DNA of 48,631 nucleotides from positions 1-48,631 of the IMG/VR virus record IMGVR_UViG_3300002175_000003. One strand, written 5' to 3'. Under the pieces are notes generated by a model. It was not told the origin of the DNA. It saw only the letters and a program-made list of their open reading frames with translations, and did not search any database. The position numbers and the translations under genes were made by a program. Shown here in pieces: positions 712 to 48,568 of this stretch; the first letter of the stretch is position 1, and each line of letters opens with the position of its first letter. The DNA is from a virus.

Positions 712-1725
712 TCAGTACCTCACCGTCATCTCGCCTTCAGGCGTTCGGGATGCGACGGCCGTGTAGGCTGCGGCGGTCGGCGACAGTTTTTCAGCCTGAG
801 CCGGTCCGACTGGCTTCACCCCCGCTGCTCCGTGGAGTTCGTAGAGCTTCTGCGCTGCGTCTCGCTCATTGTTCCAGATGCGCCACTTCCGCTTGTTTTC
901 TATTCGTACGCCGTCGACGATTTCGCCGTTTTCGTAAACGCGCTTGAGAAGCTCTTTTTCAAGGGCCTCTTTCATGTCGGAGACCGCGCGGATAACCCGA
1001 AGCATTCGTGTGACTTCGGGCGACGTCAGTGTCGAGAGGTCGCGACTGATGGCTGCCATCAGGAAATTCGCGTCCTGAGCCATGACCGGACACTTCTGGA
1101 AGGCCGGGCACCAGCGACAATGCGGCCCTGGTATCGGCGGTCCCGCATACGCCATCGCGGTGCGTACGGCTTCACGATGTTCGACGACAACACGCCGCGC
1201 GTACGCAATCTGCTTGAACCCCTGATCCTCGCCAGCGGCGGTCCATGAATTGGGCTGGAAAATGACCAGCCGAAAGAATGGCATCTCCGGATGTTCGTCG
1301 AGGAACGTCGCAGCGTAAGTGAGCAACTGCTTGTTGTCCTCAACTTCAACGTCCCAACCGCCATTTTTGTAGTCAAAAACCGTTATGACGTCTTCGGCGA
1401 TGTGCGCAACGTCGAGTTGCCCCCAGCACCCTTTGTCAAGAACAACGCGCTGTTCGATCTGCAACTCGCCGGCGCCAAGCGACTTGATGAACGCCATGAC
1501 GCGCTCGACAACTTCGCGATCCGACATTCGATCCGACTTGACCCACGGAGCGCGCGGCATCGGCAATGTGCCGGTCTTCAGCGCGCGCTCAATGACCGCA
1601 TGAACGATTGAGCCCTCTTCTGCCGCTGCGTTCGTGCGCTCAGGAAGCCCCTGAGCGAGACGAGCGGAAGGAGGGCAACAAAGCCAGCGCGCCGCGCTCG
1701 ATGGCGACCATACTGCATGTGCCAT
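712..1725 (-). CDS. PD-(D/E)XK nuclease, DUF2800 / Cas4-like with C-terminal Cys cluster
   Basis: N-terminus SPSSAARWLCCPPS and C-terminal CRWCPAFQKC cluster are typical of DUF2800. Sits in the classic DUF2800-DUF2815-PolA phage replication module. Confidence 0.8.
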   Translation of the reverse strand: MAHAVWSPSSAARWLCCPPSARLAQGLPERTNAAAEEGSIVHAVIERALKTGTLPMPRAPWVKSDRMSDREVVERVMAFIKSLGAGELQIEQRVVLDKGCWGQLDVAHIAEDVITVFDYKNGGWDVEVEDNKQLLTYAATFLDEHPEMPFFRLVIFQPNSWTAAGEDQGFKQIAYARRVVVEHREAVRTAMAYAGPPIPGPHCRWCPAFQKCPVMAQDANFLMAAISRDLSTLTSPEVTRMLRVIRAVSDMKEALEKELLKRVYENGEIVDGVRIENKRKWRIWNNERDAAQKLYELHGAAGVKPVGPAQAEKLSPTAAAYTAVASRTPEGEMTVRY

Positions 1726-12442: not shown

Positions 12443-12478
12443 CCAAAACCGACTTAGAGCGGTCTTTGGCCTGTTTTT
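12443..12478 (+). terminator. Putative rho-independent terminator (plus strand)
   Basis: 9-bp stem with one bulge (CCAAAACCG / CGGTCTTTGG), 8-nt loop, then CCTGTTTTT. Convergent with the stop of 12492..12971. Confidence 0.45.
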
Positions 12479-12491
12479 ATCAATACCTCCG

Positions 12492-13044: not shown

Positions 13045-13076
13045 CGGTCGCCGGGGCAAACTGAACCTCTCCCAAA

Positions 13077-13217
13077 CCCCAATTTTTAGACCCCTGAATT
13101 TTAGTAGGGTACCAGGGTAGTCACCCCAATTTTTAGACCCCTGAATTTTAGTAGGGTACCAGAGTAGTCACCCCAATTTTTAGACCCCTGAATTTTAGTA
13201 GGGTACCAGGGTATTCT
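13077..13217 (+). repeat. Three tandem 47-bp repeats (CCCCAATTTTTAGACCCCTGAATTTTAGTAGGGTACCAGGGTAGTCA)
   Basis: Copies start at 13077, 13124 and 13171. There is one mismatch in copy 2, and copy 3 diverges in its last 4 nt. Confidence 0.95.
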
Positions 13218-13922: not shown

Positions 13923-13978
13923 TTGTGATAGCCTTCCCCGCGGTCGTGACTATTCAGACCGCGGCGGGAGGTATTATT

Positions 13979-19900: not shown

Positions 19901-20299
19901 GCAAACAGGTTTATAAATGGCGACCTTATGGGGGTTGCCGAAATAGTGTTCTCGCCGGCCGAGAGGAGACGCTTGCAGCACATTGCGGATAACCCCGAAC
20001 CGTACTACACGGCAAGACGCGATACAGGGTACGGTGGTCGTGGCGCCGTTGTAGGTGCTTACGCGACCGCGCACATGGTTCATGGGATTATTCCGGGTGC
20101 TGAAGTGGTTCCAGGGGCGCTAACTGGGGCGGAACGAATCAGGGCCATGGTTCTAAGTCGCCGAGCGAGTGACGTGCGAAAATACAGCGAATTAGCTTCT
20201 CGCCCGATGAGGCATTTTTTGAGCGAGACCGGTTCGATGATCGGTGCTGAAACCGGCAGAGACGTAAATGAGAGGACTCGCAGCCATGCTGTTCGGTAA
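13979..20299 (+). CDS. giant virion-associated multidomain protein (2106 aa): alpha/beta-hydrolase-like, LAS/M15-type zinc peptidase, SLT-like transglycosylase, Gly/Ala-rich TM segments
   Basis: Start at the ATG 13979 with GGGAGG upstream. Motifs: SHSLGS nucleophile elbow (~16570); SAHSVNH..GGAADVE..GNLHVG (~17000-17390); HIESYGDPN...GLYQLS (~17640-17760). Gly-zipper hydrophobic region ~18500-18870. P/T/Q linkers. Confidence 0.75.
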   Translation: MASGDLFDGEDQFEGGLYTPEKFEWKPYGSSTSSTPEPTPSPTPAAAPDAPLPRARPAIPAEDSPRTTQSSQTSEPGQSGQPISLAPSNPIQLTPTPSTPQTQAAQAQPVQTPTPQTQAELAKNSAAAKNLNEEREAYVKALASVDRQLATAQNKPLIFLKNLGGINTSYSDEDIAKLDARRGELFGKLQEIDKQIEALKTANTHASQMGVLPRTAGQNLESVYYDAGPKMAEGNVSTALNLARAKDDDTLGNEVKAAARNSYNNNLYKFLPALNRTLNSADAAVGELDKVAAAGQGRYDEARPALQAEFDRLTASAGVAEVKLPTGPGSALKAAGAVETLRYQLSAARQLWGSQLQQFSLQTSFTAPPAKDMKDVDAQWRPAFNVGNIVPGTGTIVIPEDSQKNPYVGLNLGTGTGAWVKTNNFDESPFGRDGQRSLASIDDEKRIRGNINSQANAQMLREGVAFSVLHSLTKAADKEGWDNASTVQHVKSQLDSLSRGGSRGAASTPGVAKFMERLNGLPQDMIDKIDTQLASFNSVLAGTPTGQRISNATIGQLKNAINNIYAARMDAIGSTLGGDAREAGSLGLPISRLGVSRDIQDVVRPHWEAGRRETLENLFNADYVVDSGGRLVLRQPMVTGVGEKPAERAWVKGYSPTWPDPFAEPAQTATQTPQAATQTPPATRTPQTPQTAEPTEEPEPRILYQEQQQPSPASSTSPEGGGALAMSPGLAAARAVTAPTTPTTPQPETPATPATPTTPTTPATQPEASNQWQRGMNPTAWYEGDKDRPIAYIAAGKKDAYIHRFGREEGEKRYQEDVRHLSETARARGAVPVVLAPTSDQASQQRELEKELQQARKDHRKAFVVSHSLGSYSARRLIRDMHYSDVVPEGNWIGTGITDRNEDVNNELRSHGARDHFDLPRAMAEKAWRERQSRAPEAAPGTPGASEAPNEQPQQIAFRSEEAGQPAKPMTPEALLRSRLAPLPPRTPAPAPETPESPQEAQAGPKLEYVSNIRVKDRPYVVHETLAGQIREAARHAGIVRVVVTSAGQDSEKTPGARRTSAHSVNHDLVAKDGKIGGGAADVELYAPDGHKLRVGEPRDEDMLKKFVTKAAELGVSGFGGSANYQDGNLHVGGGARPETHYWGGPKDDGVPAKWLPGAAKEGWERRGWTVKGPADHGFTSVNPRVALQHRESLRAQSGEVEASPPRQYTPEEKIQRSRAADAHIESYGDPNKVRLYRNREGKLVESQYKGLYQLSSKQFDEYNNDVRTGAWKGEPVVFGGPKGEEGWRNPAYQERVKEWREAKDGKILEAAGFENNGPNRYILHNQGAAGGPALLRAAKENPNAPAWRVVKEAAPKEPDPLTNISGNVLASDFKRFTGQEWPGSASKVTASQLVKYWTNKHEYHQELAANPGAAVRSMRARQAEGEGEAAAGGMLRRGIRAVGRALSATSSAPARYGEPGSAQRQAADTAAMRWRDEHPILAAMTEPTDYGTRPPSEVESYNQGMQQAAKMVIPAAAGMAVAPMGAALVGGTGWGATGAGMAAGGLAAGGTQAGMNVLSGRPVGENVVSQAIFGGIPAVQGTKISSALGRALLSGVGGAAEPAIEGRGPYDIGLAGVVGAGLGIAGETVARAARALPRSAALSIDALGERMQQAFAEMPEEAQTTVKRLLDTATDGRTRAARERAHAELARRFNMSPEEVSNFRALADTQTTLAGKRLIEKITGEPARPQTPEEASFNLRETARGALSDARADYRFVENSINNRTAASIRSNHAGQIEPTNAAHSSYVRLDEINANTARPPATGTGAPRQLNNREKFIQLRELRSDITASAAVEDGVRKSELLRARNEVDRAIRDHLGRTVPSHSARDLEIMLRNADRKYAEAAAMAGEHFNNLKAGSLNMYDFGEAIVRMVDSKSVKNPLLHGSDAGEALVRTFYANANRYQIPAAREAIKIGLIDAVFSSALKKKEEITKAANRFINGDLMGVAEIVFSPAERRRLQHIADNPEPYYTARRDTGYGGRGAVVGAYATAHMVHGIIPGAEVVPGALTGAERIRAMVLSRRASDVRKYSELASRPMRHFLSETGSMIGAETGRDVNERTRSHAVR

Positions 20300-22224: not shown

Positions 22225-22287
22225 CTTGCACGGGCGGGGGAGGCCCCCAGTGTCTCCACCTCCCCCGCTTAAACATAGGGTGACAAA

Positions 22288-22509
22288 ATGACGATTGACG
22301 TTCCGACGCAATTTCCGGGCTCAAAAATGGCGCAGGCTGTTCGGCTCGGACAGTCGCAATTTTTGAACGTTGAGGGGATTTCCTCAACTGGCCAGCAGAC
22401 AATGATTGCCGATTTTCAGTCGCTCATTTCTGGGACTGGTACGATGAACGCCATTCTGACGGACATAAAGACGACAACGCAGGATATCCGCAACCTTTTT
22501 GCCGGGTGA
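22288..22509 (+). CDS. 73-aa stand-alone copy of the fibre N-terminal module
   Basis: [38 protein letters not shown] parallels the N-terminus of the next gene. The DNA is also repeated (22278-22400 vs 22504-22626). Confidence 0.55.
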   Translation: MTIDVPTQFPGSKMAQAVRLGQSQFLNVEGISSTGQQTMIADFQSLISGTGTMNAILTDIKTTTQDIRNLFAG

Positions 22510-22513
22510 TGAA

Positions 22514-23122
22514 ATGACAATCGACGTACCGACGCAATTTCCGAAGTCGATAAAGGCTCAATCCGCCCGGATTGGGCAGTCTCGTTTTCGCAATGTCGAG
22601 GGGATTTCCTCAACTGGCCAGCAAACGATCATATCCGAGTTGCAGACGCTCATTACGTCGATCAACACGGCCAACAATACGCTAACGGACACGAAGACGC
22701 TGGTACAGGGCATTGACGGTCTGTTAAAAAACGGCGCACCCGGAACGGTGTTGACGACAACTTCGGCAGGCATCGTGTGGGCGCCAGCGGAGTCATATTC
22801 GTTGGATGAACACCTGACTGGCGGGGTCTGGATCGACGGGAAGCCGATTTATCGCAAGACGATAGACACTGGCGGGTTGCCGAACGCGACTTCAAAAAAC
22901 GTTACGCACAACATTACAGGATTGACGTGGCTCGTAAAGATGTTCGGCACGGCGTTTGATTCGCTGGCTCAGGCTGATTTCATTGTGTTGCCGCTGGTTG
23001 TGTCAACTGCGATAGCAAATAACGTATCGCTATCTTTTTACCCAACTTACGTTTCACTGGCGACCGCTGTTGATCGAACATCGTACACACGATCTTACGT
23101 GACACTGGAGTACGTGAAGTGA
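22514..23122 (+). CDS. tail fibre protein (202 aa) with [10 protein letters not shown]-type C-terminal domain
   Basis: Start at the ATG 22514. The C-terminal ~110 aa are paralogous to the C-terminus of 24942..25676 (both end YVT(L/I)EYVK). Confidence 0.7.
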
Positions 23123-24939
23123 GAACATGGTGGAGCACGCTCACGCCAGGGACCGGCATCATCATTGATAATGATGGTGTTATTTCAGTTTCTGATATCG
23201 TGCAGGGGCCTCCTGGCGAGCCCGGAGCGACTGGACCGGCAGGACCACAGGGGCCGCAAGGGTTGCAGGGGCTTCCTGGCGAGCCCGGAGCGACTGGACC
23301 GGCAGGACCACAGGGGCCGCAAGGGTTGCAGGGACCCCAAGGCGATATCGGACCGGTCGGTCCTCCCGGGTCGGCGGCCAATATCCTTCCGTGGTACGTC
23401 AATTCTAGCGGCCGGCTGATTAATCAGATTACTACTGATATCTCTCCGATTCCTGGAGTGACAGGAGTTTTTCAAGCTTTTTCAATTACAGGCATTGGCA
23501 ATGGCATCGGAAACTACCGTTATGGTAATGATACTGTCGGGCCGGATTTGGTTTTTGCTAAATCTCGTGGTAGTGCTATTAACACAATGGCTGATGTCAT
23601 TGATGGGGATATTTTAGGTGATATTTATTTTTACGGAGCTTTTAATGACGCATGGCTACAAAGCATGCGTCAATACGTACAAGTTAGCGGCACTCCTACT
23701 TCTGCTGGTGTTCCGGTTCAGTGGGGCATAACAGCTTATGACGCTAATCGCGGTGCTACTGTTAGTCGGTTGGGGCTAGATAATAAAGGCACGCTAAATG
23801 TTGGCGCAATCGGCCTTCCGAATACGCAAGGTCTTGAGATAAATAAGCCGATTTATATGGCCGAAAACGCGGTCACTTATTCGGTCATTTCACGCGGCAG
23901 TGTCGGGACGACGGGGCAGGGCGATCTAAACGTATTCACGTCTGGCGTGGATGCGAAGACTGGAACGGCTGTGTCAAATTGGCGCGAGTTTCACGCTTCT
24001 GGCCCTTCTGTGGCGGCAGGGCAGGCGCCGACGATCACCAATTTCATCGGCCTTGACGTTATTCAGAACTACGATGCAGGAATTACCAACCGGTACGGTG
24101 TTCGTAGCCAACTTAACGTAACTTCAAACCAGGTAGCGCAACCGCGCTGGAATTTTTATGCTAGCGGTAACGCGCCGAATTATTTGGCTGGTGATTTTGG
24201 GGTGGGTGCGGGTCGCCATATTAATTTTGGCGTGCCTGCAAATATTGGCGATGTAGGTTACGGCATACGCGATAACGCCGGAGCGATGGAGTATAAAAAC
24301 TCCGGTGGATCGTGGCTGCCGCTGCGCCAGTCGGTGGGGATGCAGACATTTTATTCGTCAAGCACTTTCACCGTCCCGGCCGGCGTGACGAGTATCCGCA
24401 AACTGCGCATTTGGGGTGCTGGCGGCGGTGGCGGCGGTAGCAGCAGCGCCAGCACTTCCGGTGGTGGTGGCGGAGGCGGCGGTGCCTACGCGGAGATTGG
24501 CAATGTCGCGGTGACACCAGGCCAGCAAATCGCCGTGATGGTCGGTGTCGGCGGCACCGGCGGCACGGCAACCCCGACTGACGGCGGCAACGGCGGATCG
24601 AGTTCGTTCGGTGCCACACTGACAGTGGCAGGAGGCAACGGCGGCGCTGGCACCTCTACCGCGACGGCCGGGGATGGCGGTGCTGGCGGCACGCCGGCGG
24701 CGGGGGCGTCATTTAGTATGTCGGGCAGAAAAGGCAATTCAGCGTGGGTCTTACAGCCCGGCGTCGTGGCGATGGGTCAGGGCGGTCAATCGTTCGGGAC
24801 GACTCAAACTGGCGTTTCATTGTCGGCGGTCGCAACCGCTGGATACCCCGGGATGTTCCCTGGCAGCGGCGCCAATGGCGGTGTTCTCGGTGGCGCTGGC
24901 GGCAATGGCGGCAACGGCGTCGTGATCGTGGAGTGGTGA
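23119..24939 (+). CDS. tail fibre protein with collagen-like G-X-Y repeats and glycine-rich C-terminal domain (606 aa)
   Basis: GTG start overlapping the previous stop (GTGA), with GGAG upstream. (GXY)n region. Poly-Gly/GGNGG-rich C-terminus. Confidence 0.8.
23212..23337 (+). repeat. Exact 63-bp tandem duplication inside the collagen-like region
   Basis: 23212-23270 is identical to 23275-23333 and encodes [20 protein letters not shown] twice. Confidence 0.9.
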
Positions 24940-24941
24940 AT

Positions 24942-25676
24942 ATGACAAAGAGATACGCACGCATCGTCGATGGCGTCGTTCGCGAGATCGTTACGCCGCT
25001 CGATGGCTTTGAGCTGGCCGATTGTTACGACGCCGAGTTTGTCGCCGCGTGCGTGCCATGCGGCGAGAATGTCGGCGAGGGTTGGACGTACGATCCACTC
25101 AATCGGGATTTTATCGCTTTCCAAGAATGGCTCGCGGCCGGCAACGTGTCCGATCCTGCCAACCCGCTTCCTCCTCCTCCAGAGCCGCTGTCAATCAGCA
25201 CGGTACCCCCGCTGAAAGTAACAACCAATAATAACGTCGCTACGGTGTCGCTTGCTGCTGGGAACGCGGGAGAGGTGCTTTCTATTGGTGCTGGCGGCAC
25301 TCCGGGTTGGGCGGCTCCGGCGGCTCCGGCGGGGGGCGGATTTCACTATTCTACTGCGGAACAATTAACTGGGGATTATTGGATTGATGGGAGGCCAGTG
25401 TACCGTAAAACAATTAGTATGGGAGCGCTCCCAAATAATACCATAAAAGGTAGCCTTCACGGACTTCCAGGCGGTACTTTTAGAATACTAAGGGTTTATG
25501 GGTATGCGTTTAGAACTACTAGCTATATTTGCATACCGATTCCAAATGCTCCCGGGAGCTTAGGGAACACGTGGCCTATTAGCGTATATACAGATGCAAC
25601 TTATGTTTGGTTAACTACTACAGTCGACATGACTTCTTTTGCAGAAAGTTACGTGACTATTGAGTATGTAAAATAA
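24942..25676 (+). CDS. tail fibre/adhesin protein (244 aa) with WIDGRPVYRK-type C-terminal domain
   Basis: Start at the ATG 24942 (MTKRYARIVDG). The AT-rich C-terminal half is paralogous to the C-terminus of 22514..23122. Confidence 0.65.
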   Translation: MTKRYARIVDGVVREIVTPLDGFELADCYDAEFVAACVPCGENVGEGWTYDPLNRDFIAFQEWLAAGNVSDPANPLPPPPEPLSISTVPPLKVTTNNNVATVSLAAGNAGEVLSIGAGGTPGWAAPAAPAGGGFHYSTAEQLTGDYWIDGRPVYRKTISMGALPNNTIKGSLHGLPGGTFRILRVYGYAFRTTSYICIPIPNAPGSLGNTWPISVYTDATYVWLTTTVDMTSFAESYVTIEYVK

Positions 25677-27101: not shown

Positions 27102-27742
27102 GCGGCTTTGACACGAGCGTATCGACGACAACCGCGCGGTTCATGGCAAAACAGTACGGTTCGATCTTGCGTGGTTACGGACCGCCGGTCCAGCAAGCAG
27201 GTGTTGCGGGCGACCTCTACATCGACGTGGTGACGTGGAAGCTTTACGAGAAGCGCGAGATAAACGGCATCCATGCGTGGGGCCACCATTTGTGGGTCGT
27301 GCCGGCACTCTACCGGTACGGGCTCAAATGGTTCGGGCCGTCGCGGCCGACGAACGATCTTGGCGTCGTGTCTGACTACTACTTGCAGTGGAGCGGCTGG
27401 AACAATTACGGCATGTGGCCGACGATTTGGGGCCCAAAAAACTGGTACGGCTGGCCCGAGAACGGCGACGGTCCTGGTCTGAAAATCGCTCTTGAGAACG
27501 CAGACAGCGTGCTGCCAGTCGGGCTGGTCGACGAGGGGCCGCGCGAGCAAGATATTGCGCCGCTGCAATTGATCGACACGGGGCTGCTTGATGAGATCAC
27601 CGTTCCGGTTCCGGTAACGGCGAATGCCGGCGAGTTGATCCTGCAACTCGGGCTGCAATCCGGCGGCTTCCTGTTCAAACTTCCGCTTAACCCGCTATGG
27701 CCGGTCGAAGACCGCCACCACATTGAAGGGCCTGGACGATGA
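27098..27742 (+). CDS. hypothetical virion/tail protein (214 aa)
   Basis: ATGA coupling on both sides. Confidence 0.55.
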   Translation: MSGFDTSVSTTTARFMAKQYGSILRGYGPPVQQAGVAGDLYIDVVTWKLYEKREINGIHAWGHHLWVVPALYRYGLKWFGPSRPTNDLGVVSDYYLQWSGWNNYGMWPTIWGPKNWYGWPENGDGPGLKIALENADSVLPVGLVDEGPREQDIAPLQLIDTGLLDEITVPVPVTANAGELILQLGLQSGGFLFKLPLNPLWPVEDRHHIEGPGR

Positions 27743-29070
27743 GTTACACGGCACAGACGGATTTCCTTGGCCTTTGGCGTATGACCTCGACGGGCGTCGA
27801 GAAGGCCATGATGCCGGGCCTTGACTGGTGGGTTGCGGCCATGGGCCGAGCCGGCCTGATCAATGTTTTTGTGAGCAGGACTCCGCCGACGGTGAACCAG
27901 CCAACCACGGCGTGGTTCATGCCGGCGAGCCCGTCATATGCGGCTGAAGGCGTGCTGTTCCTCTGGAACGGCAACCAGTACGTGCCGGCAACGCCTGATC
28001 TGTTCCTGCGCCTGATGATGTTCACCGGTCTGGGGCTATCCGGGCTGCTCGATGACTACTTTGGCGACGAACAAGGTTCGATTATCTACCGCGACATTGA
28101 CGTATGGAAAGCGCTCCCGCCTGGCAATCCTGGCGCCGTGCTCACCACAATGGGGTTGCATGCCAACCCGATCTGGCGCGCCATTACGGCTTCTCTCGTG
28201 GCGAATGACAGCACGGCGCCCGGCACAACGGTCGCCGACGCATTGAGTTTGCTTCGGGATGCTTTGAGCCTGCTGACGAGTGACGATATCCACAATGCGT
28301 CAACTGTTCCTGGCGTGACGGTCACGCAAGCCCTTGATGCGCTCGTTAATGCCATTAACGGTATTGATAATGCGCACGTTCATAACCTTTCGAATGTTCC
28401 CGGCGCCACGACGAAGGACGCCCTGAATGCGATATATGCCAACCCATTTGCGGGTTTCGGCTACGGCACGGCTGGCTACGTGCTGACTTCAACCGGTCCC
28501 GGTACGCCCCCAGTCTGGAAGTCGCTTTCTTTGGCGATTGGGACGAGTGGCGTAACGAACCAAAGTGGCGTTCCTGGTGCTACGGCGACAGATGCGCTGA
28601 ATTACATACAGGGTGAAATTGCCGCGCTCCAGCAGGGCGGCTCCGGCACCCCTTCCCCAAGTAATAGATGGCCTGTGGGGTGCAATTGGGTTGTGCCTCC
28701 TTTTCTTACCGTCAACTTTGACAATAGTCCCAGCGGAACTATGTTCATCGTTGAAACTTCACTTGTAATTCTTGACTACATTGGAGTGGGGCAGGGAATT
28801 TACTACAACAACGCTGGTGCATTCGACAGGACGCCGGACACTACGGGTAACGGGGGTATTACAGGTAGAGCTTTTACCCAGTCAGATGTCGCACAATCTA
28901 GGTCTGGCGTAATAACGGGAACGTATTCAGCGGTACCTCCCGTACCTGGTACATGGATTGGCGTGAATGGTACTCCAGATGAAGTTGTTATGATGTCATA
29001 TAATGTCGATCTTACACCTAACAAAAAATGGGATGGCAGCCCCTCAACCCAATTTGTACGTATTGCATAA
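27739..29070 (+). CDS. tail fibre protein (443 aa) with switchable C-terminal receptor-binding tip (currently tip A)
   Basis: Four N.S.VPG.T..DAL repeats. N-terminal ~95 aa paralogous to 32902..33513. The constant/variable junction coincides with the left inverted repeat at 28634-28692. Confidence 0.8.
   Translation: MSYTAQTDFLGLWRMTSTGVEKAMMPGLDWWVAAMGRAGLINVFVSRTPPTVNQPTTAWFMPASPSYAAEGVLFLWNGNQYVPATPDLFLRLMMFTGLGLSGLLDDYFGDEQGSIIYRDIDVWKALPPGNPGAVLTTMGLHANPIWRAITASLVANDSTAPGTTVADALSLLRDALSLLTSDDIHNASTVPGVTVTQALDALVNAINGIDNAHVHNLSNVPGATTKDALNAIYANPFAGFGYGTAGYVLTSTGPGTPPVWKSLSLAIGTSGVTNQSGVPGATATDALNYIQGEIAALQQGGSGTPSPSNRWPVGCNWVVPPFLTVNFDNSPSGTMFIVETSLVILDYIGVGQGIYYNNAGAFDRTPDTTGNGGITGRAFTQSDVAQSRSGVITGTYSAVPPVPGTWIGVNGTPDEVVMMSYNVDLTPNKKWDGSPSTQFVRIA
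28634..28692 (+). repeat. Left inverted repeat (59 bp, perfect) of the putative invertible segment
   Basis: AGGGCGGCTCCGGCACCCCTTCCCCAAGTAATAGATGGCCTGTGGGGTGCAATTGGGTT equals the reverse complement of 29824-29882. Confidence 0.95.
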
Positions 29071-29110
29071 ACATGCTACGGTGCGTTGTAGACCCCATGG
29101 AGGATAAAAA

Positions 29111-29440
29111 ATGCAGCGCACTCTCGCATCTGCTACCGATCTTGAATACTCCACTGCCGACAACAAGATGATCCGCATGCAGGCAAAATTCTTGGAGCTA
29201 GATTTTTCGGTTCCTTTTGACGCCTGTTTGACCTTTCCGGATGCACACCAGCGCAATGCTTACACCCGCGCCGTCGCCGGTGAGTTTGGTCCTGTCGCAC
29301 CGTATAAACCAATCACAATGAAAGGTTTCAAGCTCGACGAAAATGGCAAACCTGTAAAAGGCGAAGAAACCGATACGTTAATTCGGCATGCGTATTTAGG
29401 CGAAAATAACCAACTGCGGTTTGAGTATAAGGCGGCCTAG
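29111..29440 (+). CDS. hypothetical protein (109 aa), possibly a fibre assembly factor for tip A
   Basis: GGAGGA SD. Position is analogous to Mu U. The function is inference only. Confidence 0.5.
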   Translation: MQRTLASATDLEYSTADNKMIRMQAKFLELDFSVPFDACLTFPDAHQRNAYTRAVAGEFGPVAPYKPITMKGFKLDENGKPVKGEETDTLIRHAYLGENNQLRFEYKAA

Positions 29441-29453
29441 GCCGCCTTTTTTT
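29431..29453 (+). terminator. Rho-independent terminator (plus strand)
   Basis: GGCGGCC-TA-GGCCGCC palindrome followed by T7. Confidence 0.8.
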
Positions 29454-29823
29454 ATGCGATACGTATAAATTGATTTGACGGATAAGTTGGTTTGAAACCA
29501 CCGATACTAGAGCCAGAGAGTTGCACTTCGTATTTTGCCCCGTTTACCCCAATCCATGTTCCATCGACAGGCGGTATACTGTATGCAGTCTCAAATATCG
29601 ATGGCGCTATCGCGATACATTGCGCCCGCGTAAATGGCGCAGATGCACCCATTATGTCCGTGTAAAAGGTACTGCCTATATTTTTACCGTCCATGCTAGG
29701 TTCAGCAGTAGCTGCATAGAGATGGTAAAAAACATACACCGTATCGGGAATTATACCGGTAAAAACGATAGCGTATGCCGTGGCGCTTCCTGCACTCGGG
29801 TCTCCAGTAGTTTCCCATGCGAT
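29452..29823 (-). other. Promoterless, start-less alternative fibre tip cassette (tip B, 124 codons)
   Basis: The frame stays open through the right inverted repeat. Shares GCNWV, P(V)(P/D)GTWIGVNG and a terminal QF(V/I)RIA with tip A. No SD or ATG of its own. Confidence 0.75.
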
Positions 29824-29882
29824 AACCCAATTGCACCCCACAGGCCATCTATTACTTGGGGAAGGGGTGCCGGAGCCGCCCT
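29824..29882 (-). repeat. Right inverted repeat (59 bp, perfect)
   Basis: Reverse complement of 28634-28692. Overlaps the terL stop codon (29881-29883) by 2 nt. Confidence 0.95.
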
Positions 29883-31416
29883 ATCTCGGTGTGTCGTAGT
29901 CGTTGACGGCAAACGTGCAGATCACCGCGTCGAGGCGGTCGGGAGACCGGCCAATTTCTGCCCGTATCTTTTCTTTCGGCGTAACGAACAGGCGCGCATG
30001 CTCGTCGCGACGACAGCCGGCGGTCCCCCATTTGTATGCAGCGCATTCTTCTTGCAGCATTTTGTCATTCTTGACCGAGACTGACCCGTTCAAATACTGG
30101 GCAAATTTGAAGTGAAGCTCAGCGCGACGATTGGCAAACTGCACGGAATTATGGGCGCCAGAACCGAAGCTGACCGGGATGATCCTGTTCCCCCGGTCGC
30201 GCATTCGCAGCCGGAGAGCGTCGACGAGACCCTTGCCGATGCCGGTCGAGTCAATGCAGATGACGTCCATATCGTAGCGTTCGTACGCGGCCCGTATCCA
30301 GTCTGCCTGGACGTTCTGGTCGGAATTTTTAATCTCGCCCCAAATTCTGTTCCCGATGCAGCACCCCTGGCGGTCGCAGACGAACGTGCTGTCGGAACCG
30401 TCGCCGGCTGGATCGACAGCCAGAATTTTCAACGTTCCTTCCGTCGGCGGAACCCGAGACAGCATGGCTTGCTGGACGAGTGACGGCGGGAAGAAATCGA
30501 GAGTGCTGTCGGCCAGAAAACATTCGGAATAAGTGACTGGAAATTCTTGTCGCGTGAGCCGATGAATGCTGTCAGGCGTGCCGCCGTTCATTGTGGCGAT
30601 GTCGTAGTTCTTCCGATAAAACCAGTAAGTTTGCGGCGGCGTCAACCTATGGATGCGACTGTACTCGACGAGTTCAAGTGGAGGCTGCCACTTATCCGGA
30701 ACCTCTTCTTTGTAGTCCACCATGGCGGTCCATGGTAGAAAATGCATGCGCCAAAGACCGGTGTTGTTTTCCCGATGCGCCTGTTCGCACATATTGAAAA
30801 ACATGCCGCTCGCCCCGTTGCCGGTCGATTCCATGAAAATTTCCGTGCCGACTTGATCGAGCACGGTCTGTAAAATTCCAGACGACAAGTCTTCGGTGTT
30901 GTCAAAAAAAGCGGCCTCGGAAAAGTGTAGATAGTGAGTGTCTTCTGACCGCCCGATGTTCCCGCCTTCCGCCGACGAAACGCGGTAGGACGATTGGAGT
31001 CGGCTGAAAATCAACTCACGTGCGTTTGAGGCGCCGGTCACTGGCCGGATAGGTTCCGGAAGTTCTTCGTAGAATGTGCGGACTTCGCGATGAAGGTGGC
31101 TGGCGCTATCGTTACGGTGAGCCACAACGTGGGCTCGCCGGCCGCGTTTTGACAAGACTGCGTGGAAGAACCGCGCGCTGATGTAGGTTGAAACGCCCAT
31201 GCGGCGCGCTTTTGGGACAAGCGCGCGCACGCGGCCGTACGTTTTCCTCTCCAATTCGATACGCTGGTGGAGAATTTCTTGTGCTGGGTTGAGGATAAAG
31301 TGGATGCGTCGGCCGCCTTCGCGCGGCCGAATCATCAGGAATCTTTCGCGGTACCAGTTGAAATCGCAGATGCGGTCACTGATAGCTTGCGGGGTTGCCC
31401 TTTCCCATGGCCACAT
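29881..31416 (-). CDS. terL: terminase large subunit
   Basis: Walker A-like KARRMGVST. Nuclease-domain motifs AVDPAGDGSD, IDSTGIGKG and C-terminal SPDRLDAV. Confidence 0.85.
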   Translation of the reverse strand: MWPWERATPQAISDRICDFNWYRERFLMIRPREGGRRIHFILNPAQEILHQRIELERKTYGRVRALVPKARRMGVSTYISARFFHAVLSKRGRRAHVVAHRNDSASHLHREVRTFYEELPEPIRPVTGASNARELIFSRLQSSYRVSSAEGGNIGRSEDTHYLHFSEAAFFDNTEDLSSGILQTVLDQVGTEIFMESTGNGASGMFFNMCEQAHRENNTGLWRMHFLPWTAMVDYKEEVPDKWQPPLELVEYSRIHRLTPPQTYWFYRKNYDIATMNGGTPDSIHRLTRQEFPVTYSECFLADSTLDFFPPSLVQQAMLSRVPPTEGTLKILAVDPAGDGSDSTFVCDRQGCCIGNRIWGEIKNSDQNVQADWIRAAYERYDMDVICIDSTGIGKGLVDALRLRMRDRGNRIIPVSFGSGAHNSVQFANRRAELHFKFAQYLNGSVSVKNDKMLQEECAAYKWGTAGCRRDEHARLFVTPKEKIRAEIGRSPDRLDAVICTFAVNDYDTPR

Positions 31417-32431: not shown

Positions 32432-32944
32432 ATACGGATCGTAGTTGACTGGCGGGTACCAACTTCCCATGAACAATTCCGGCTGGCGGGTGACCGGAAC
32501 CCGCTGGACATGGCCGCCATCAATGAACGAGCTTGTGCGACCGGTCCCCCAGTCAATGCCGGAGACGAGTTTGAACTGTCTCGCCAGATCGCGTAAAAAT
32601 AAGTAGTATTTAATGTCTCCTTGGTATTTCCCGCCTGAGAATATCCCGAGGTCTGCCGCAACCCCGTAGCCATGCGTTCCGACGGTCCGGAGTTGCGTGG
32701 CTTTCTGCATGAACAGCCTGGATTGCCGGGCTTGCGACCGGTAGGTTTCGAGGACTCGTACGTCGATACCGCGCTCCTTGGCCTTGTTGGTGAGCGCCTG
32801 GACGGCCGCGCGCGTGCCGGGCTCCAGCATGGCAAGGTCTTTGCAGATTTCGCCATCTTTCCGGAACCATGGCGAGTTGCGAATGACCTCCTGGTAGAAA
32901 TTCACACCAGCACCCAATTTCCAGTTGCGGCGGTCGCGAACCAT
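32423..32944 (-). CDS. endolysin, peptidase M15 (VanY/LAS-type) family
   Basis: YRSQARQ, HGYGVAADL and DGGHVQ zinc-ligand motifs. The start may be internal, because the ORF overlaps the upstream gene by 43 nt. Confidence 0.75.
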   Translation of the reverse strand: MVRDRRNWKLGAGVNFYQEVIRNSPWFRKDGEICKDLAMLEPGTRAAVQALTNKAKERGIDVRVLETYRSQARQSRLFMQKATQLRTVGTHGYGVAADLGIFSGGKYQGDIKYYLFLRDLARQFKLVSGIDWGTGRTSSFIDGGHVQRVPVTRQPELFMGSWYPPVNYDPYSR

Positions 32945-33513
32945 TCATCGTCAATTGTACGCAGCGTTATTGTTGACCCCACGGCCGTCGATGAGCAGTT
33001 TTTGAGTGCCGTGCCGGTTCCGAGACGCATCTTTGTCTGGATTGTAATGGTACCAGCCGCAACAACGGCGAAGATGAATTGTGTGCCAACAGACGGCGGC
33101 GGCATGACATAAAGGACATTGTTAACATCTGCATTCGTCCATACGCCGTTGAGAAACCCCTGCTCCGGAGCGAGGAAGGCGGTCGTTTCATCGGACGAAA
33201 ATTCGCCGGCGGGCGCTGCGAGAAGACGGCGCCAAAGCGCTGGCGTTGCTGGCTTGAAATTGTCGTCAAGGCGGTCGTAGAGCCAGATCGTTCCTTCTCG
33301 CGCCCAGGAGTGCGGTGAGTCAGTTCGCAACCACACTGTATCGTTCCTGATTTTCGGCGGGGGCGGATCGCTACGGTGTACCCAGAGCCTGATGATTCCG
33401 GCTTCGAACAAACTCTGCACGACAAAATCGAGTCCAGGGATACGCACGAAGCGCTGCCCTTTGCCGTCATTGCGCAAGAGGGCCGGAAAATCAGTTTGTC
33501 GGGAGTAGGACAT
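32902..33513 (-). CDS. short tail fibre/spike protein (203 aa)
   Basis: N-terminal ~95 aa paralogous to the N-terminus of 27739..29070 (MSY..QTDF...PGLD...AG.I...V.R..PP....EG...L....PATP.L..RL). Confidence 0.6.
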   Translation of the reverse strand: MSYSRQTDFPALLRNDGKGQRFVRIPGLDFVVQSLFEAGIIRLWVHRSDPPPPKIRNDTVWLRTDSPHSWAREGTIWLYDRLDDNFKPATPALWRRLLAAPAGEFSSDETTAFLAPEQGFLNGVWTNADVNNVLYVMPPPSVGTQFIFAVVAAGTITIQTKMRLGTGTALKNCSSTAVGSTITLRTIDDEWFATAATGNWVLV

Positions 33514-33519
33514 GGGGCC

Positions 33520-34200
33520 TCACATCTTCACGCGGATCGTCGCGAGGTATGCATTTTGGAATGGCTGGGTTGCAAATCCGCCGATCACAATTCCACCAGA
33601 ATCGTGCTTCCACTCGATAGAGGTATCTAGTACCCATCCGTTCTGCATTCTCTGCAATGCACCTATGCCTGCACCGTATGAGAAGAGCCAGACATTCCTG
33701 CTCGCCGGCCCAAGAGTCGCCGAAACGTTATCCTGGTAGGTGGACGCAAAGATGTACGGCCGCGGCGGGCCGCCGGTCGATATGGCCGGTAGTGACGGCA
33801 TGCCATCGCGGAGCCGGAACCATTCAGCTATGCGATCCAGGTATGACTGGGGTACGCCCAGCGCATACCTTTGCTGAAGAGCCAGCGCGGTCCCGAGTGA
33901 GAGATTGCCGCTGGCGTTAACGCCTTGGACCGCGACTGTCTGCTCGACGAACCAAAACGTGTCGCGCCATGTGCCGTGATAGCCAACGTCAAAACCGGCA
34001 CGGATGCCGACCGTTGCGCCGGCCTGGAACGGGCTGGCTGCGCTGGCGGTCCCCCCGAGGCCCGCAAGTGACGCTCCGAAGAACCAGCCGCGAATTTCTG
34101 GGTACTGCGGCACGGCGGAGCGCGGTAGCGGCGTAAGGTCTGCTGCGGCCGCGGTGCTCGACAAGAACGCCGCAGCGATAAAAGTCGCAAGCTTGCGCAT
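33520..34200 (-). CDS. outer-membrane beta-barrel protein with signal peptide (Omp25/OmpW/Lom-like moron)
   Basis: MRKLATFIAAAFLSSTAAAADL signal peptide. Alternating aromatic/glycine beta-strand pattern. Confidence 0.6.
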   Translation of the reverse strand: MRKLATFIAAAFLSSTAAAADLTPLPRSAVPQYPEIRGWFFGASLAGLGGTASAASPFQAGATVGIRAGFDVGYHGTWRDTFWFVEQTVAVQGVNASGNLSLGTALALQQRYALGVPQSYLDRIAEWFRLRDGMPSLPAISTGGPPRPYIFASTYQDNVSATLGPASRNVWLFSYGAGIGALQRMQNGWVLDTSIEWKHDSGGIVIGGFATQPFQNAYLATIRVKM

Positions 34201-43623: not shown

Positions 43624-44055
43624 TTATATCTCTATTTTTTCCAGGTATTTTTCGAAGTCGAAAAATGACCGGCAAACAAAGTAGTGGTACCGCGGCCCAA
43701 GGGCGGTCCATCGCCGCTGGAATTCTTCTTGCTTTGGGGACAAATGACCGCCGGGGGCCTTAAGCTCGATGGCGTAGCTCCCAGTTGCCGTGAAGAAGAG
43801 GAAGTCTGGGCAGCCTGGAACGACACCCATGCGCTTGAGTTTGGTCGCGGTCGCAACGTCGCGCGGTTCGCCATTTGGCACGTGAAAAATCACAAGCTCA
43901 GGACGGTTCTTCTGGACCCACTGCCAAATGTGCATGTGGATTGTTTTTTCACGAATCGGGCGGGATAAGGCCCTTCGTCTTAAGCTCTCGCTCTCGATTT
44001 TCGACATACCAGCGAATTGCCTCTCTTCCAGCACTCGTATGCGTTTCGACGTCAT
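43624..44055 (-). CDS. VRR-NUC domain nuclease
   Basis: GVVPGCPDFLFF...YAIELKAPGGHLSPKQEEF matches the PD..(D/E)xK VRR-NUC signature. The 5' end overlaps the upstream RHH ORF, so the start is uncertain. Confidence 0.75.
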   Translation of the reverse strand: MTSKRIRVLEERQFAGMSKIESESLRRRALSRPIREKTIHMHIWQWVQKNRPELVIFHVPNGEPRDVATATKLKRMGVVPGCPDFLFFTATGSYAIELKAPGGHLSPKQEEFQRRWTALGPRYHYFVCRSFFDFEKYLEKIEI

Positions 44056-47836: not shown

Positions 47837-48568
47837 TTATCTGGGCGGGAACGGTGACGCTGGACCTGACGAACCGCTCCCGCCCCAGGGCGCCCCTGGC
47901 GACATGCCCGCACCAGGGGCTGCCCCGAATCCTGCCGGCACGGGCGCGGGGGGAGGAGCGAAGTTCCCGCCGCCGGCGAACCCTGTCACGTTGAGGCCTT
48001 GGGCACGGGCCTTTTCCATCAGTTCTGCCGGGTTCGCGGCATTGCCGATGTTTATTTCCTCGCCGCGCTGCAAGAACAGCACAAGATTGATGTAGAGCTT
48101 CACCGCCATCGCGTTGGTGCTGTTTTGCGCGGCAACAACCGACACGGCGCACACATCGCCCGGCTTCACCATGGCTTTGTTTGGGAGGTTGACCACGGCG
48201 CCGTTCTGAATGATGGCGGTCTTAATCGGGAAATTTGAGTTTCCGCCGAATGTCCAGTGACCGCGAGCCCAATCGGCCGGAGCGCGGCCGGGAACGGGAG
48301 TGTCGCCGTCTCTGACGGGCCATTGGATGGCGGAAAAGGGGACATTGGACATGGCACCTTGCCACAATTCGTTGCAGGCTTGAGCGAGGCCCGCGAAAAT
48401 CGGCTCGTCCCACCACGCACTTCGTGTTTTCTGGGCAATGAATGCCGCCAGATAGGTGGGTTGCTGGGACGGTCGCCCCTGATACGTCGTAGCGGGCTCC
48501 CAAAGATTGCGCATCCCGAAGATGCGACAACCAAATATGTCTGCGTGCTTCATCAATTTACTGGCCAT
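47837..48568 (-). CDS. ssDNA-binding protein, T7 gp2.5-like / DUF2815
   Basis: Position between DUF2800 and PolA once the genome is circularised. KPGDVCAVSVVA...VKLYINLVLFLQ beta pattern. Gly/Pro-rich C-terminal tail. Confidence 0.6.
   Translation of the reverse strand: MASKLMKHADIFGCRIFGMRNLWEPATTYQGRPSQQPTYLAAFIAQKTRSAWWDEPIFAGLAQACNELWQGAMSNVPFSAIQWPVRDGDTPVPGRAPADWARGHWTFGGNSNFPIKTAIIQNGAVVNLPNKAMVKPGDVCAVSVVAAQNSTNAMAVKLYINLVLFLQRGEEINIGNAANPAELMEKARAQGLNVTGFAGGGNFAPPPAPVPAGFGAAPGAGMSPGAPWGGSGSSGPASPFPPR

What the first reader, a model, noticed from the sequence alone, without database searches (positions are those of the whole stretch)
28634..29882. Mu G-segment-like invertible tail-fibre tip switch with no recognisable invertase anywhere in the genome
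A perfect 59-bp inverted repeat (28634-28692 vs reverse complement of 29824-29882) lies in frame inside the 443-aa fibre ORF, at ...GGSGTPSPSNRWPVGCNWV.

On the opposite strand the same frame continues for 124 codons (29823 down to 29452) with no ATG or SD of its own. This antisense cassette matches the expressed tip in length. It shares GCNWV, P-V-(P/D)-GTWIGVNG and the terminal QF(V/I)RIA, and is otherwise divergent.

Inversion would give an in-frame 442-aa fibre with a different receptor-binding tip. This is the architecture of Mu Gin/G, P1 Cin/C and shufflons.

Three things differ from those systems:
- No serine invertase or tyrosine recombinase is recognisable in this complete genome.
- The right repeat abuts and overlaps the terL stop codon, where an invertase gene would normally sit.
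- There is only one small accessory ORF (29111..29440), not a U/U' pair.

The switch would therefore depend on a host-encoded recombinase, on an unrecognised phage protein, or on homologous recombination between the 59-bp repeats.
Basis: partly seen in the sequence, partly recalled or inferred. Interest (0 to 1): 0.9.

Follow-up and report, generated by a model that had tools for sequence, protein, structure and literature searches.

The report
Invertase-less invertible tail-fibre tip cassette
A lytic soil phage carries a spare, silent tail-fibre tip in reverse orientation behind a perfect 59-bp inverted repeat, so flipping a 1.2-kb segment would change its receptor-binding tip as in phage Mu, but it has no invertase gene and flipping has not yet been seen.

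Summary
A perfect 59-bp inverted repeat (28634-28692 / 29824-29882) is the only long inverted repeat in this ~48.5-kb circular phage genome. It sits in frame at the shaft/tip junction of a 443-aa fibre. On the other strand it is followed by an open 123-codon tip with no start codon, directly after the terL stop.

The two tips are each other's closest relatives among 1.84 billion proteins, but they diverged long ago: 15 of 24 conserved degenerate residues use different codons. The repeat has no difference in 17 degenerate codons (P about 6e-8), so its DNA has been homogenised or was copied recently.

No serine or tyrosine recombinase was found by Pfam on 71 ORFs or by six-frame searches. The repeat has no gix-like dyad. 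The phage does encode an exonuclease, a gp2.5-like annealing protein and a VRR-NUC nuclease.

My best reading is a G-segment-like tip switch driven by homologous recombination rather than an invertase.

Caveats:
- All four resolved assemblies show the same orientation.
- No chimeric fibre exists in the protein databases searched.
- None of about 85 related loci has this layout.

Inversion is therefore inferred, not shown. This would be a new variant of a known kind. Interest is 0.6.

The parts
27739..28632 (+). Constant part of the fibre gene: N-terminal virion anchor (~100 aa, shared with paralogs and relatives) plus the repeat-containing shaft.
   Evidence: ORF 27739-29070. Homologs P0002-P0022 share the N-terminal ~100 aa and shaft repeats but have variable tips. 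GC3 is 0.67.
28634..28692 (+). Left arm of the inverted repeat. In frame, it encodes GGSGTPSPSNRWPVGCNWV, the end of the last shaft repeat (SNRW aligns with ANPxW) and the junction to the tip.
28693..29070 (+). Expressed tip (tip1): 125 codons plus stop, ending QFVRIA*.
   Evidence: GC3 is 0.39, unlike the constant part. It carries the family tip motifs GTW...R(V/I)(A/S).
29111..29440 (+). Single accessory ORF (109 aa) with its own GGAGGA Shine-Dalgarno sequence. It is an ORFan of unknown role, possibly fibre-associated.
   Evidence: The only hit is phrog_1795 'tail fiber protein' N-terminus, E 5.6e-6. No homolog in 5.8 billion proteins, Pfam or NCBIfam or the PDB. The AF2 model is unusable, pLDDT 43.
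29429..29448 (.). A 20-nt perfect palindromic hairpin between the accessory ORF and the silent tip. It is an intrinsic terminator with a T-run on the + strand. On the - strand the hairpin follows the tip' stop but has a weak U-tract.
   Evidence: I5; free energy -21.3 and -15.9 kcal/mol, z about -3.
29452..29823 (-). Silent tip cassette (tip'): 123 codons plus TAA, ending QFIRIA*. It has no start codon or SD of its own beyond a GTG inside the repeat.
   Evidence: The open frame has P about 0.0007 by composition. Its closest relative among 1.84 billion representatives is tip1 of the same phage, E 2e-11. GC by codon position is the same as tip1.
29824..29882 (-). Right arm of the inverted repeat. 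Its outer 2 nt (AG) are part of the terL stop codon TAG.
29881..31416 (-). Large terminase. It converges on the segment and shares a frame with tip'. Its last ~4-7 residues differ from relatives, so the stop codon was created at the junction with the repeat.
   Evidence: phrog_2 terminase large subunit, E 1e-23. C-terminal comparison with L011, L005 and L001.
712..1725 (-). PD-(D/E)XK / DUF2800 (Cas4-like) exonuclease: candidate resection enzyme for phage-driven homologous recombination.
   Evidence: Pfam DUF2800 1e-38 and PDDEXK_1 6e-10. phrog_69 exonuclease 1e-56.
47837..48568 (-). Gp2.5-like / Enc34-type ssDNA-binding and annealing protein: candidate annealing factor.
   Evidence: Pfam Enc34_ssDNA-bd 8e-7. 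phrog_7011 'Gp2.5-like ssDNA binding protein and ssDNA annealing protein' 5e-13.
43624..44055 (-). VRR-NUC nuclease: candidate junction-resolving enzyme.
   Evidence: Pfam VRR_NUC 2.5e-4. phrog_824, plus weaker endonuclease and Holliday-junction-resolvase PHROGs.
32902..33513 (-). Second, short fibre paralog (203 aa) with the same N-terminal anchor as the 443-aa fibre. This is context only: the family normally multiplies whole fibre genes.
   Evidence: tblastn gives 39% identity to fibre residues 1-98. Relatives carry 2-3 such paralogs in tandem.

Best explanation
This is a gene-splicing invertible cassette for the receptor-binding tip of a tail fibre. It is functionally analogous to the Mu G segment, but it is most likely flipped by general homologous recombination between the two identical 59-bp repeats, not by a dedicated invertase.

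How it would work:
- In the orientation seen, the tail operon (+ strand) makes constant part + tip1, then the 109-aa accessory protein, and stops at the hairpin.
- A crossover within the repeats inverts 28693-29823.
- The constant part then joins in frame to tip', giving a 441-aa fibre with a different tip.
- terL keeps its stop codon.
- The accessory ORF now faces the converging terL transcript, so it can still be expressed.

The phage's own exonuclease, gp2.5-like annealing protein and VRR-NUC nuclease, or host RecA, would supply the recombination. Inversion would be rare per replication, and growth on whichever host is available would select the productive isomer.

What is shown: the anatomy, the homology and old divergence of the two tips, the DNA-level homogeneity of the repeat, the lack of a recombinase and of a dyad core, and the presence of recombination genes.

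What is inferred: that inversion happens, that the chimeric fibre works, and which enzymes act.
For: Anatomy and coding state:
- The perfect in-frame repeat lies exactly at the shaft/tip junction.
- tip' is open for 123 codons (P about 0.0007) and ends at the same C-terminal motif and stop position as tip1.
- tip' has no start codon or SD of its own.

Evolutionary signature:
- 15 of 24 conserved degenerate residues differ by synonymous changes. The tips are therefore old paralogs kept under protein-level constraint.
- The repeat has 0 differences in 17 degenerate codons, P about 6e-8.
- Identity drops from 100% to background at both repeat boundaries.
- tip1 is the only clear homologue of tip' among 1.84 billion proteins; the other five hits are weak, mostly multi-stretch matches to longer proteins that I did not examine.

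No site-specific machinery:
- No Resolvase, Phage_integrase or DDE hit in 71 ORFs.
- No six-frame hit to Gin, Int, FimB or FimE.
- The repeat has no dyad symmetry beyond shuffles (80% of shuffles are as good) and no gix-like motif.

Recombination capacity:
- The phage encodes an exonuclease, a gp2.5-like annealing protein and a VRR-NUC nuclease.
- Gp2.5 is classed among phage recombinases (PMC2896510).
- Phage annealing proteins recombine short sequences (PMC8093625 abstract).

Precedent and reality of the layout:
- Lytic cyanophages isomerise repeat-flanked segments, and the authors raise isomer maintenance even without a dedicated recombinase (bioRxiv 10.64898/2026.02.14.705889).
- The structure is real: the same layout appears in a MEGAHIT k141 contig and in JGI contigs.
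Against: - Inversion has never been observed. All resolved assemblies (window, ENA L013/L088, JGI L092, and a second JGI contig carrying P0001) have const-IR-tip1.
- No const+tip' protein was found in 5.8 billion clusters.
- Logan contigs break at the repeat only because k=31 is shorter than 59, so they say nothing either way.
- 59 bp is short for efficient homologous recombination. Known recombinase-free isomerisations use repeats of 400-700 bp.
- The layout is a singleton. No comparable repeat occurs in the 64 related loci scanned. Relatives instead carry 2-3 whole fibre paralogs.
- All copies of this phage found are 100% identical, so conservation of the layout over time cannot be tested.
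- Function of the tips and of the accessory ORF is unproven, and both structure models were of low confidence.
Confidence: 0.45

Rival explanations
1. It is a true invertible switch, but it is flipped by a site-specific recombinase supplied in trans. The enzyme would be a host-encoded invertase (as e14 Pin can complement Gin) or an unrecognised phage protein, such as the ORFan 29111-29440 that lies inside the segment.
For: - The architecture is that of Gin/Cin-type systems.
- The repeat boundaries are abrupt.
- The only gene unique to this phage in the region, an ORFan, sits inside the segment, as hin does.
- About half of the phage's proteins have no annotation.
Against: - The repeat has no dyad-symmetric core, which serine and tyrosine recombinase sites have, and no gix-like motif.
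- Site-specific systems need identity only in a short core, so perfect identity over all 59 nt (P about 6e-8 under the tips' divergence) fits homology-driven conversion better.
- The ORFan is only 109 aa, and its sole hit is to a tail-fibre N-terminus.
- The family has no prophage relatives in 185,579 species genomes. A strictly lytic phage depending on a host invertase is an awkward design.
Confidence: 0.15
2. It is a frozen relic. A second, convergent fibre paralog lost its N-terminal part by a deletion reaching to 59 bp from its tip, or a foreign tip was recently captured in reverse. The silent tip is on its way to decay, and any inversion is incidental and of no biological use.
For: - The layout is a singleton among the 64 related loci scanned.
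- The family's normal way to carry several specificities is whole paralogous fibre genes, one of which in this phage is already on the minus strand.
- The terL C-terminus was altered at the junction, the mark of a one-off rearrangement.
- Only one orientation has ever been seen.
- The perfect repeat could simply be young.
Against: - tip' has no stop or frameshift in 123 codons (P about 0.0007) and ends at the exact family C-terminus.
- The deep synonymous divergence of the tips against zero divergence in the repeat needs a special history: paralogs homogenised only at the junction, then a very recent deletion.
- Even under this history, any crossover in the 59-bp repeats yields an in-frame alternative fibre. 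'Relic' and 'young switch' therefore differ only in whether selection uses it.
Confidence: 0.3
3. It is a silent-cassette gene conversion system (pilS/vls-like). tip' is copied non-reciprocally into the expression site, using the 59-bp repeat on one side and the conserved 3' end on the other, without inverting the segment.
For: There is homology on both sides of the variable part. On one side are 59 of 59 nt. At the 3' end are 19 of 21 nt (CAATTT[G/A]TACGTAT[T/C]GCATAA), plus 17 of 20 nt at the TWIGVNG motif.
Against: - The 3' homology is very short and interrupted.
- A single crossover in the long perfect repeat, giving inversion, is far more likely than a double event.
- No converted variant (const+tip' followed by the accessory ORF on the same strand) exists in the databases.
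Confidence: 0.05
4. It is an assembly artefact (a fold-back or strain chimera), or tip' is expressed by read-through of the terL stop codon.
For: - The source is a metagenomic assembly.
- terL and tip' share a frame, separated only by TAG.
Against: - The same structure was assembled independently by MEGAHIT at k=141, which is longer than the repeat, and by JGI pipelines from at least two samples. All copies are 100% identical.
- The Logan unitigs are exactly what a real 59-bp inverted repeat gives at k=31: a 1191-nt segment contig, equal to 1131 + 2x30.
- A terminase-fibre-tip fusion has no precedent or rationale. The shared frame follows from the repeat being in frame with the fibre.
Confidence: 0.03

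Closest known systems
Phage Mu G segment / Gin (also P1 and P7 C segment / Cin, e14 P / Pin, p15B Min)
   Same: - The fibre gene is split into a constant 5' part outside the segment and alternative 3' tips inside it, in opposite orientations.
- The repeats lie at the constant/variable junction and in frame.
- Inversion would splice a different receptor-binding tip.
The Mu layout was checked in AF083977.
   Different: - There is no serine invertase gene next to the segment or anywhere in the genome.
- The repeat has no 26-bp dyad gix-type site.
- There is one accessory ORF rather than a U/U' pair.
- The segment is 1.2 kb rather than 3 kb.
- The right repeat abuts a converging terL rather than the invertase gene.
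- The phage is lytic, with no integrase or transposase.
- Both orientations have not been observed.
Recombinase-free (or recombinase-unknown) genome isomerisation in lytic cyanophages A-1(L), N-1, Elbi and A-Lf14 (bioRxiv 10.64898/2026.02.14.705889); more generally flip-flop between inverted repeats, as in plastid and herpesvirus genomes (my own knowledge)
   Same: - A lytic phage has a segment flanked by inverted repeats.
- Those authors discuss maintenance of the isomers possibly without a dedicated recombinase, through the phage's recombination-prone replication.
   Different: - Those repeats are 400-700 bp and the segment is about 30 kb.
- Inversion there does not splice a gene, and both isomers were shown by PCR.
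- Here the repeat is 59 bp and lies inside a coding sequence, the effect would be a protein-tip swap, and the isomers have not been seen.
Shufflons (R64 Rci/sfx) and gene-altering programmed inversions in prophage tail-fibre genes (PMC9881135)
   Same: Alternative C-terminal ends of an adhesin or fibre are selected by DNA inversion.
   Different: - Shufflons have several segments, 19-bp sfx sites and a tyrosine recombinase (Rci).
- The catalogued tail-fibre inversions are in prophages.
- None of these features is present here.
Tandem fibre paralogs in the same phage family (for example L011, L025, L034, L040, L041)
   Same: They use the same N-terminal anchor and the same tip family (GTW...R(V/I)(A/S)). 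They are also a way to carry more than one receptor specificity.
   Different: Relatives encode 2-3 complete genes expressed together. This phage has one complete gene plus a promoter-less, anchor-less tip that can only be used after DNA rearrangement.

Membership tests
Gin/Cin/Hin/Pin-type serine-invertase fibre switch | Inverted repeats flank a segment at the constant/variable junction of a fibre gene, with alternative in-frame 3' ends in opposite orientation. | tested here: met
.
Gin/Cin/Hin/Pin-type serine-invertase fibre switch | A serine recombinase (Resolvase domain) is encoded next to or inside the segment. | tested here: not met
   There was no Pfam Resolvase hit at E <= 0.01 in 71 ORFs. 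Six-frame phmmer and tblastn with Mu Gin gave a best E of 0.13.
Gin/Cin/Hin/Pin-type serine-invertase fibre switch | A 26-bp imperfectly dyad-symmetric crossover site (gix/hix/cix) lies within each repeat. | tested here: not met
   No gix-like motif was found. The best internal dyad is 7 of 11, and 80% of shuffles do as well.
Gin/Cin/Hin/Pin-type serine-invertase fibre switch | Paired tip-specific chaperone genes (U/U') lie inside the segment. | tested here: not met
   There is only one ORF with an SD, 29111-29440. It is an ORFan and does not match tail-fibre assembly families.
Gin/Cin/Hin/Pin-type serine-invertase fibre switch | Both orientations coexist in phage populations. | tested here: inconclusive
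   Four resolved assemblies show the same orientation. No chimeric protein was found. Raw reads could not be examined, and consensus assemblies hide minorities.
Shufflon (Rci/sfx) | A tyrosine recombinase and multiple short sfx repeats separate several segments. | tested here: not met
   There was no Phage_integrase hit and no hit to lambda Int, FimB or FimE in six frames. There is a single repeat pair only.
Homologous-recombination flip-flop between inverted repeats | Identical inverted repeats are kept homogeneous at the DNA level. | tested here: met
   The repeat is 59 of 59 identical, against 62.5% synonymous difference at conserved residues of the adjacent tips, P about 6e-8.
Homologous-recombination flip-flop between inverted repeats | A general recombination apparatus is available and there is no dedicated recombinase. 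| tested here: met
   The phage encodes an exonuclease, a gp2.5-like annealing protein and a VRR-NUC nuclease. No site-specific recombinase was found.
Homologous-recombination flip-flop between inverted repeats | Both isomers are demonstrable. | not testable with these tools
   This needs read-level data or PCR. The collections hold only consensus contigs.
Diversity-generating retroelement (considered and rejected) | A reverse transcriptase and a template/variable direct-repeat pair with adenine-specific differences. | tested here: not met
   There was no RT domain in the Pfam scans. The repeat is inverted and perfect.

The most novel reading that the evidence does not exclude
A strictly lytic phage runs a dedicated host-range switch without any site-specific recombinase. 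A 59-bp repeat, kept identical at the DNA level and placed at the fibre shaft/tip junction, is flipped by the phage's own general recombination proteins (exonuclease, gp2.5-like annealing protein, VRR-NUC). The cassette sits exactly where two late operons converge, so one accessory gene and one hairpin terminator serve both orientations. This would be a minimal, 'enzyme-free' version of the Mu G segment, evolved by collapsing a second fibre paralog into a silent tip.
Probability: 0.35. Interest if true: 0.75.

Novelty: new variant of a known kind. Interest (0 to 1): 0.6.

Why it matters
Fibre-tip switching by DNA inversion is a textbook strategy of temperate phages, and there it is tied to a dedicated invertase.

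If this cassette flips, three things follow:
- A virulent phage can get the same bet-hedging on host range from a short homogenised repeat and ordinary recombination alone.
- Searches that anchor on recombinase genes would systematically miss such switches in viromes.
- It would suggest a very compact design for engineering phages with two host ranges.

It also gives a testable case of how a multi-paralog fibre repertoire can collapse into a one-gene, two-tip cassette.

Tried and rejected
Searches for the flipped isomer or a close relative:
- An exact search for a 27-nt part of the repeat in IMG/VR and JGI metagenome contigs found nothing. The flipped junction could therefore not be looked for there.
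- An exact-protein look-up of the fibre was 'not on record'. The phage was reached through terL, the accessory ORF and the 214-aa neighbour instead. Every copy is 100% identical and in the same orientation, so no comparative or dN/dS analysis across strains was possible.
- The Logan contigs break at k-1 = 30 nt into each repeat, which says nothing about orientation.
- A megablast of the region against 50,697 GenBank phages gave no match.

Relatives:
- Relatives of the fibre and of terL came from IMG/VR, JGI metagenomes and the protein collection, about 85 loci in all. None of the 64 scanned has a comparable repeat, and none is closer than 72% (neighbour protein) or 71% (terL) identity. The 20 metagenome loci were fetched but not scanned for repeats.
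- The family has no relatives in 185,579 species genomes, so there is no host or prophage clue.

Function of the tips and the accessory ORF:
- A word-index search and a full HMMER search with tip' found tip1 as the only clear homologue; the five other full-search hits are weak, mostly multi-stretch matches to longer proteins, not followed up.
- Pfam, NCBIfam, PHROG and PDB searches of the tips and the accessory ORF gave nothing, apart from one weak PHROG hit for the accessory ORF.
- The AlphaFold models of tip' (with a 15-sequence tip alignment, pLDDT 58) and of the accessory ORF (pLDDT 43) were too poor for fold searches, so none was run.

Readings rejected:
- A DGR, a shufflon, a gix-like site and terL stop read-through were considered and rejected.
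- An assembly artefact was rejected because independent k=141 and JGI assemblies agree.
Full report
**1.

The window is a circularly closed assembly with a 100-bp terminal overlap, so the genome is about 48,531 bp.

A 59-nt, 100% complementary inverted repeat has arms at 28634-28692 and 29824-29882, with 1131 nt between them. No such match occurs in 100 dinucleotide-preserving shuffles. It is the only long, high-identity inverted repeat in the genome.

The left arm lies in frame in the 443-aa ORF 27739-29070. It encodes (Q)GGSGTPSPSNRWPVGCNWV and ends on a codon boundary.

On the minus strand the right arm begins with the AG of the terL stop codon TAG (29883-29881). It continues in the same frame through the repeat into 123 further sense codons, IAWETT...QFIRIA, and stops at TAA 29454-29452.

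The flipped fibre would therefore be 318 + 123 = 441 aa.

**2. What the parts are**

The 443-aa protein belongs to a family of metagenomic phage fibres. Members share a ~100-aa N-terminal anchor, then a shaft of repeats ending in ...ANPxW, then a short, very variable tip. The tip carries a GTW motif and a C-terminal x-R-(V/I/L)-(A/S/T).

The repeat encodes the end of the last shaft repeat (SNRW) and the first residues of the tip. It therefore sits exactly on the module boundary.

Both tip1 and tip' carry the family motifs. BLASTP between them gives 38% identity over the C-terminal 66 residues, E 2e-9. In a full HMMER scan of 1.84 billion representative proteins, tip1 is the only clear homologue of tip' (E 2e-11). 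The five other hits are weak, mostly multi-stretch matches to longer proteins, and I did not examine them.

Both tips have the same unusual composition, with GC3 of 0.39 against about 0.66 in the constant part and terL.

Other features of the segment:
- The 109-aa ORF between the tips has a strong SD but is an ORFan. Its only signal is a weak match to the N-terminus of a PHROG annotated as tail fibre protein.
- A 20-nt perfect palindrome (29429-29448) lies between this ORF and the tip' stop. It is followed by a T-run on the + strand.
- The 511-aa minus-strand gene is the large terminase.
- The segment lies where the + strand tail operon (about 13.4-29.4 kb) meets the minus-strand portal-to-terminase operon (38.4 down to 29.9 kb).

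**3. Evolutionary signature**

Within the alignable part of the tips, 25 residues are identical and 24 of these are degenerate. Fifteen of the 24 (62.5%) use different codons. The tips therefore diverged long ago while their conserved positions stayed under protein-level constraint.

The repeat has 17 degenerate codons and no difference at all. At the tips' level of divergence the probability of that is about 6e-8. Nucleotide identity drops from 100% to background at both repeat boundaries.

The tip' frame being open for 123 codons has a probability of about 0.0007 given its composition.

The repeat is thus identical because of a DNA-level process, either gene conversion or recombination between the arms, or a very recent copy. 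Conservation of the encoded peptide does not explain it. The silent tip shows no decay.

**4. No site-specific recombinase, no recombinase-type site**

Recombinase searches:
- Pfam HMMs on 71 ORFs covering essentially all coding capacity found no Resolvase, Phage_integrase, DDE or RT domain at E <= 0.01.
- phmmer (--max) and tblastn of Mu Gin, lambda Int, FimB and FimE against all six frames gave nothing better than E = 0.13.

Site searches:
- The repeat has no similarity to Mu gix, read from AF083977.
- Its internal dyad symmetry is no better than in shuffled sequence; 80% of shuffles equal it. Both serine- and tyrosine-recombinase sites are dyad-symmetric (established knowledge).

By contrast the phage has the parts of a general recombination system:
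- a DUF2800/PD-(D/E)XK exonuclease (712-1725);
- a gp2.5-like / Enc34-type ssDNA-binding and annealing protein (47837-48568);
- a VRR-NUC nuclease (43624-44055).

Gp2.5 is counted among phage recombinases (PMC2896510). Phage annealing proteins act on short homologies (PMC8093625).

**5. Is it real DNA, and does it flip?**

The same structure, 100% identical, is present in a MEGAHIT k141 contig (ENA ERZ27257342, L013/L088/L090). It is also in a second JGI sample (3300002125, L092), whose contig reads from the 214-aa gene through the left repeat into tip1.

The Logan (k=31) contigs break 30 nt into each repeat and give a 1191-nt segment contig. That is exactly what a real 59-bp inverted repeat produces, and it says nothing about orientation. 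An assembly artefact is therefore excluded.

Every resolved assembly has the same orientation. No protein joining the constant part to tip' exists among 5.8 billion clustered proteins. The repeat sequence is absent from the searchable contig collections, so the flipped junction could not be searched for.

Inversion is therefore not demonstrated. Consensus assemblies would hide a minority isomer. A lytic phage would also be enriched for whichever tip fits the prevailing host, as Mu G(+) is in lytic growth (summarised).

**6. Comparative context**

About 85 related loci were retrieved through the fibre, its neighbours and terL. None of the 64 scanned has a comparable repeat; the 20 metagenome loci were not scanned. 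None is closer than about 70% protein identity.

Relatives carry two or three complete fibre paralogs with the same anchor, usually in tandem. This phage has a second short paralog on the minus strand at 32902-33513.

The terL C-terminus differs from relatives in its last few residues (...NDYDTPR* against ...DDYALKGDKK*). The terL/repeat junction is therefore the scar of a one-off rearrangement.

A plausible history is that a convergent second fibre gene lost everything upstream of 59 bp from its tip. That left a silent tip which can be used only after inversion. The family has no prophage relatives in 185,579 species genomes, which fits a strictly lytic lifestyle.

**7. Mechanism proposed**

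A crossover within the two 59-bp arms inverts 28693-29823. The constant part is then spliced in frame to tip'. terL keeps its TAG, because the T lies outside the repeat and the AG inside it.

The accessory ORF, with its own SD, then faces the converging terL transcript. It ends at the same hairpin with its T-run. One accessory gene and one terminator could therefore serve both orientations. This explains the missing U' without invoking a deficiency; it is an inference.

The enzymes are most likely the phage's own exonuclease, annealing protein and nuclease, or host RecA. The reasons are that no invertase and no dyad core exist and that the whole 59 nt are kept identical.

The main weaknesses are that 59 bp is short for homologous recombination and that no isomer has been seen.

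**8. Verdict**

| Reading | Probability |
|---|---|
| Switch flipped by homologous recombination | 0.45 |
| Switch flipped by a site-specific enzyme, trans-acting or unrecognised | 0.15 |
| Relic without biological use | 0.30 |
| Gene conversion of a silent cassette | 0.05 |
| Artefact or stop read-through | 0.03 |

The anatomy is that of a Mu-G-like gene-splicing inversion cassette, and the 'no invertase' claim stands. It fails the defining tests for membership of the Gin/Cin family (invertase, gix site, U/U'), though it may work like that family.

It is best filed as a new variant of a known kind: a possible recombinase-independent tip switch in a lytic phage. A read-level search for the recombinant junctions would settle it.

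Noticed in passing
window 13076-13216: Three tandem copies of a 47-nt unit (98-100% identical; ACCCCAATTTTTAGACCCCTGAATTTTAGTAGGGTACCAGGGTAGTC). They lie in the divergent region between the minus-strand early genes and the plus-strand late operon. They could be iterons or operators of an origin or a promoter switch.
   Followed up: no
window 9211-9260 and 9750-9799: A 50-nt element is repeated 539 nt apart (90% identical). It starts with TTGACC and contains a GGGGCCGG...CCAGCCCC hairpin, upstream of early minus-strand genes. It looks like a repeated regulatory element.
   Followed up: no
window 13925-20299 (+): A 2124-aa ORF at the head of the late operon has no Pfam or PHROG hit at all. It may be a giant virion or ejection protein of unknown kind.
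   Followed up: partly
window 32902-33513 (-) and related loci L011, L025, L034, L040, L041: A second, 203-aa fibre paralog has the same N-terminal anchor as the 443-aa fibre. Relatives carry 2-3 such anchors in tandem, so the family exchanges tips on a common anchor.
   Followed up: partly
window 22278-22654, 22499-23122 and 24744-25676: A 151-nt direct repeat (76% identical) gives two adjacent ORFs the same N-terminus ([10 protein letters not shown]...). The 207-aa and 310-aa proteins share a C-terminal ...SYVT(L/I)EYVK end. These are further paralogous tail or fibre modules.
   Followed up: no
window 23119-24939 (+): A 606-aa protein has a collagen triple-helix repeat, including a 63-nt tandem duplication at 23201-23326, and a C-terminal glycine-rich domain (Gly_rich_2; phrog_863).
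   Followed up: no
window 29881-29900 (terL 3' end): The terL C-terminus ends ...NDYDTPR*, whereas relatives end ...DDYA(L/M)xxxxK*. The last codons and the stop were remodelled where the repeat was joined.
   Followed up: yes
window 33520-34200 (-): A 226-aa ORF with a clear N-terminal signal peptide (MRKLATFIAAAFLSSTAAAADL...) and a beta-rich, outer-membrane-protein-like sequence lies in the lysis/structural region next to the VanY-type endolysin. It has no family hit.
   Followed up: no
window about 11540-12490: A ~950-bp stretch has no ORF of 45 aa or more and low G+C (0.42-0.50 against 0.55 for the genome). It lies in the early region and could be an origin or regulatory region.
   Followed up: no
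window 1-100 and 48532-48631: An exact 100-bp terminal direct repeat is the overlap of a circular assembly, not necessarily the physical genome ends.
   Followed up: yes
L013, L014, L088-L092: Every copy of this phage in the public assemblies is 100% identical over up to 13.5 kb, including a JGI sample (3300002125) different from the ENA and Logan ones. This is unusually low diversity for a metagenomic phage.
   Followed up: partly
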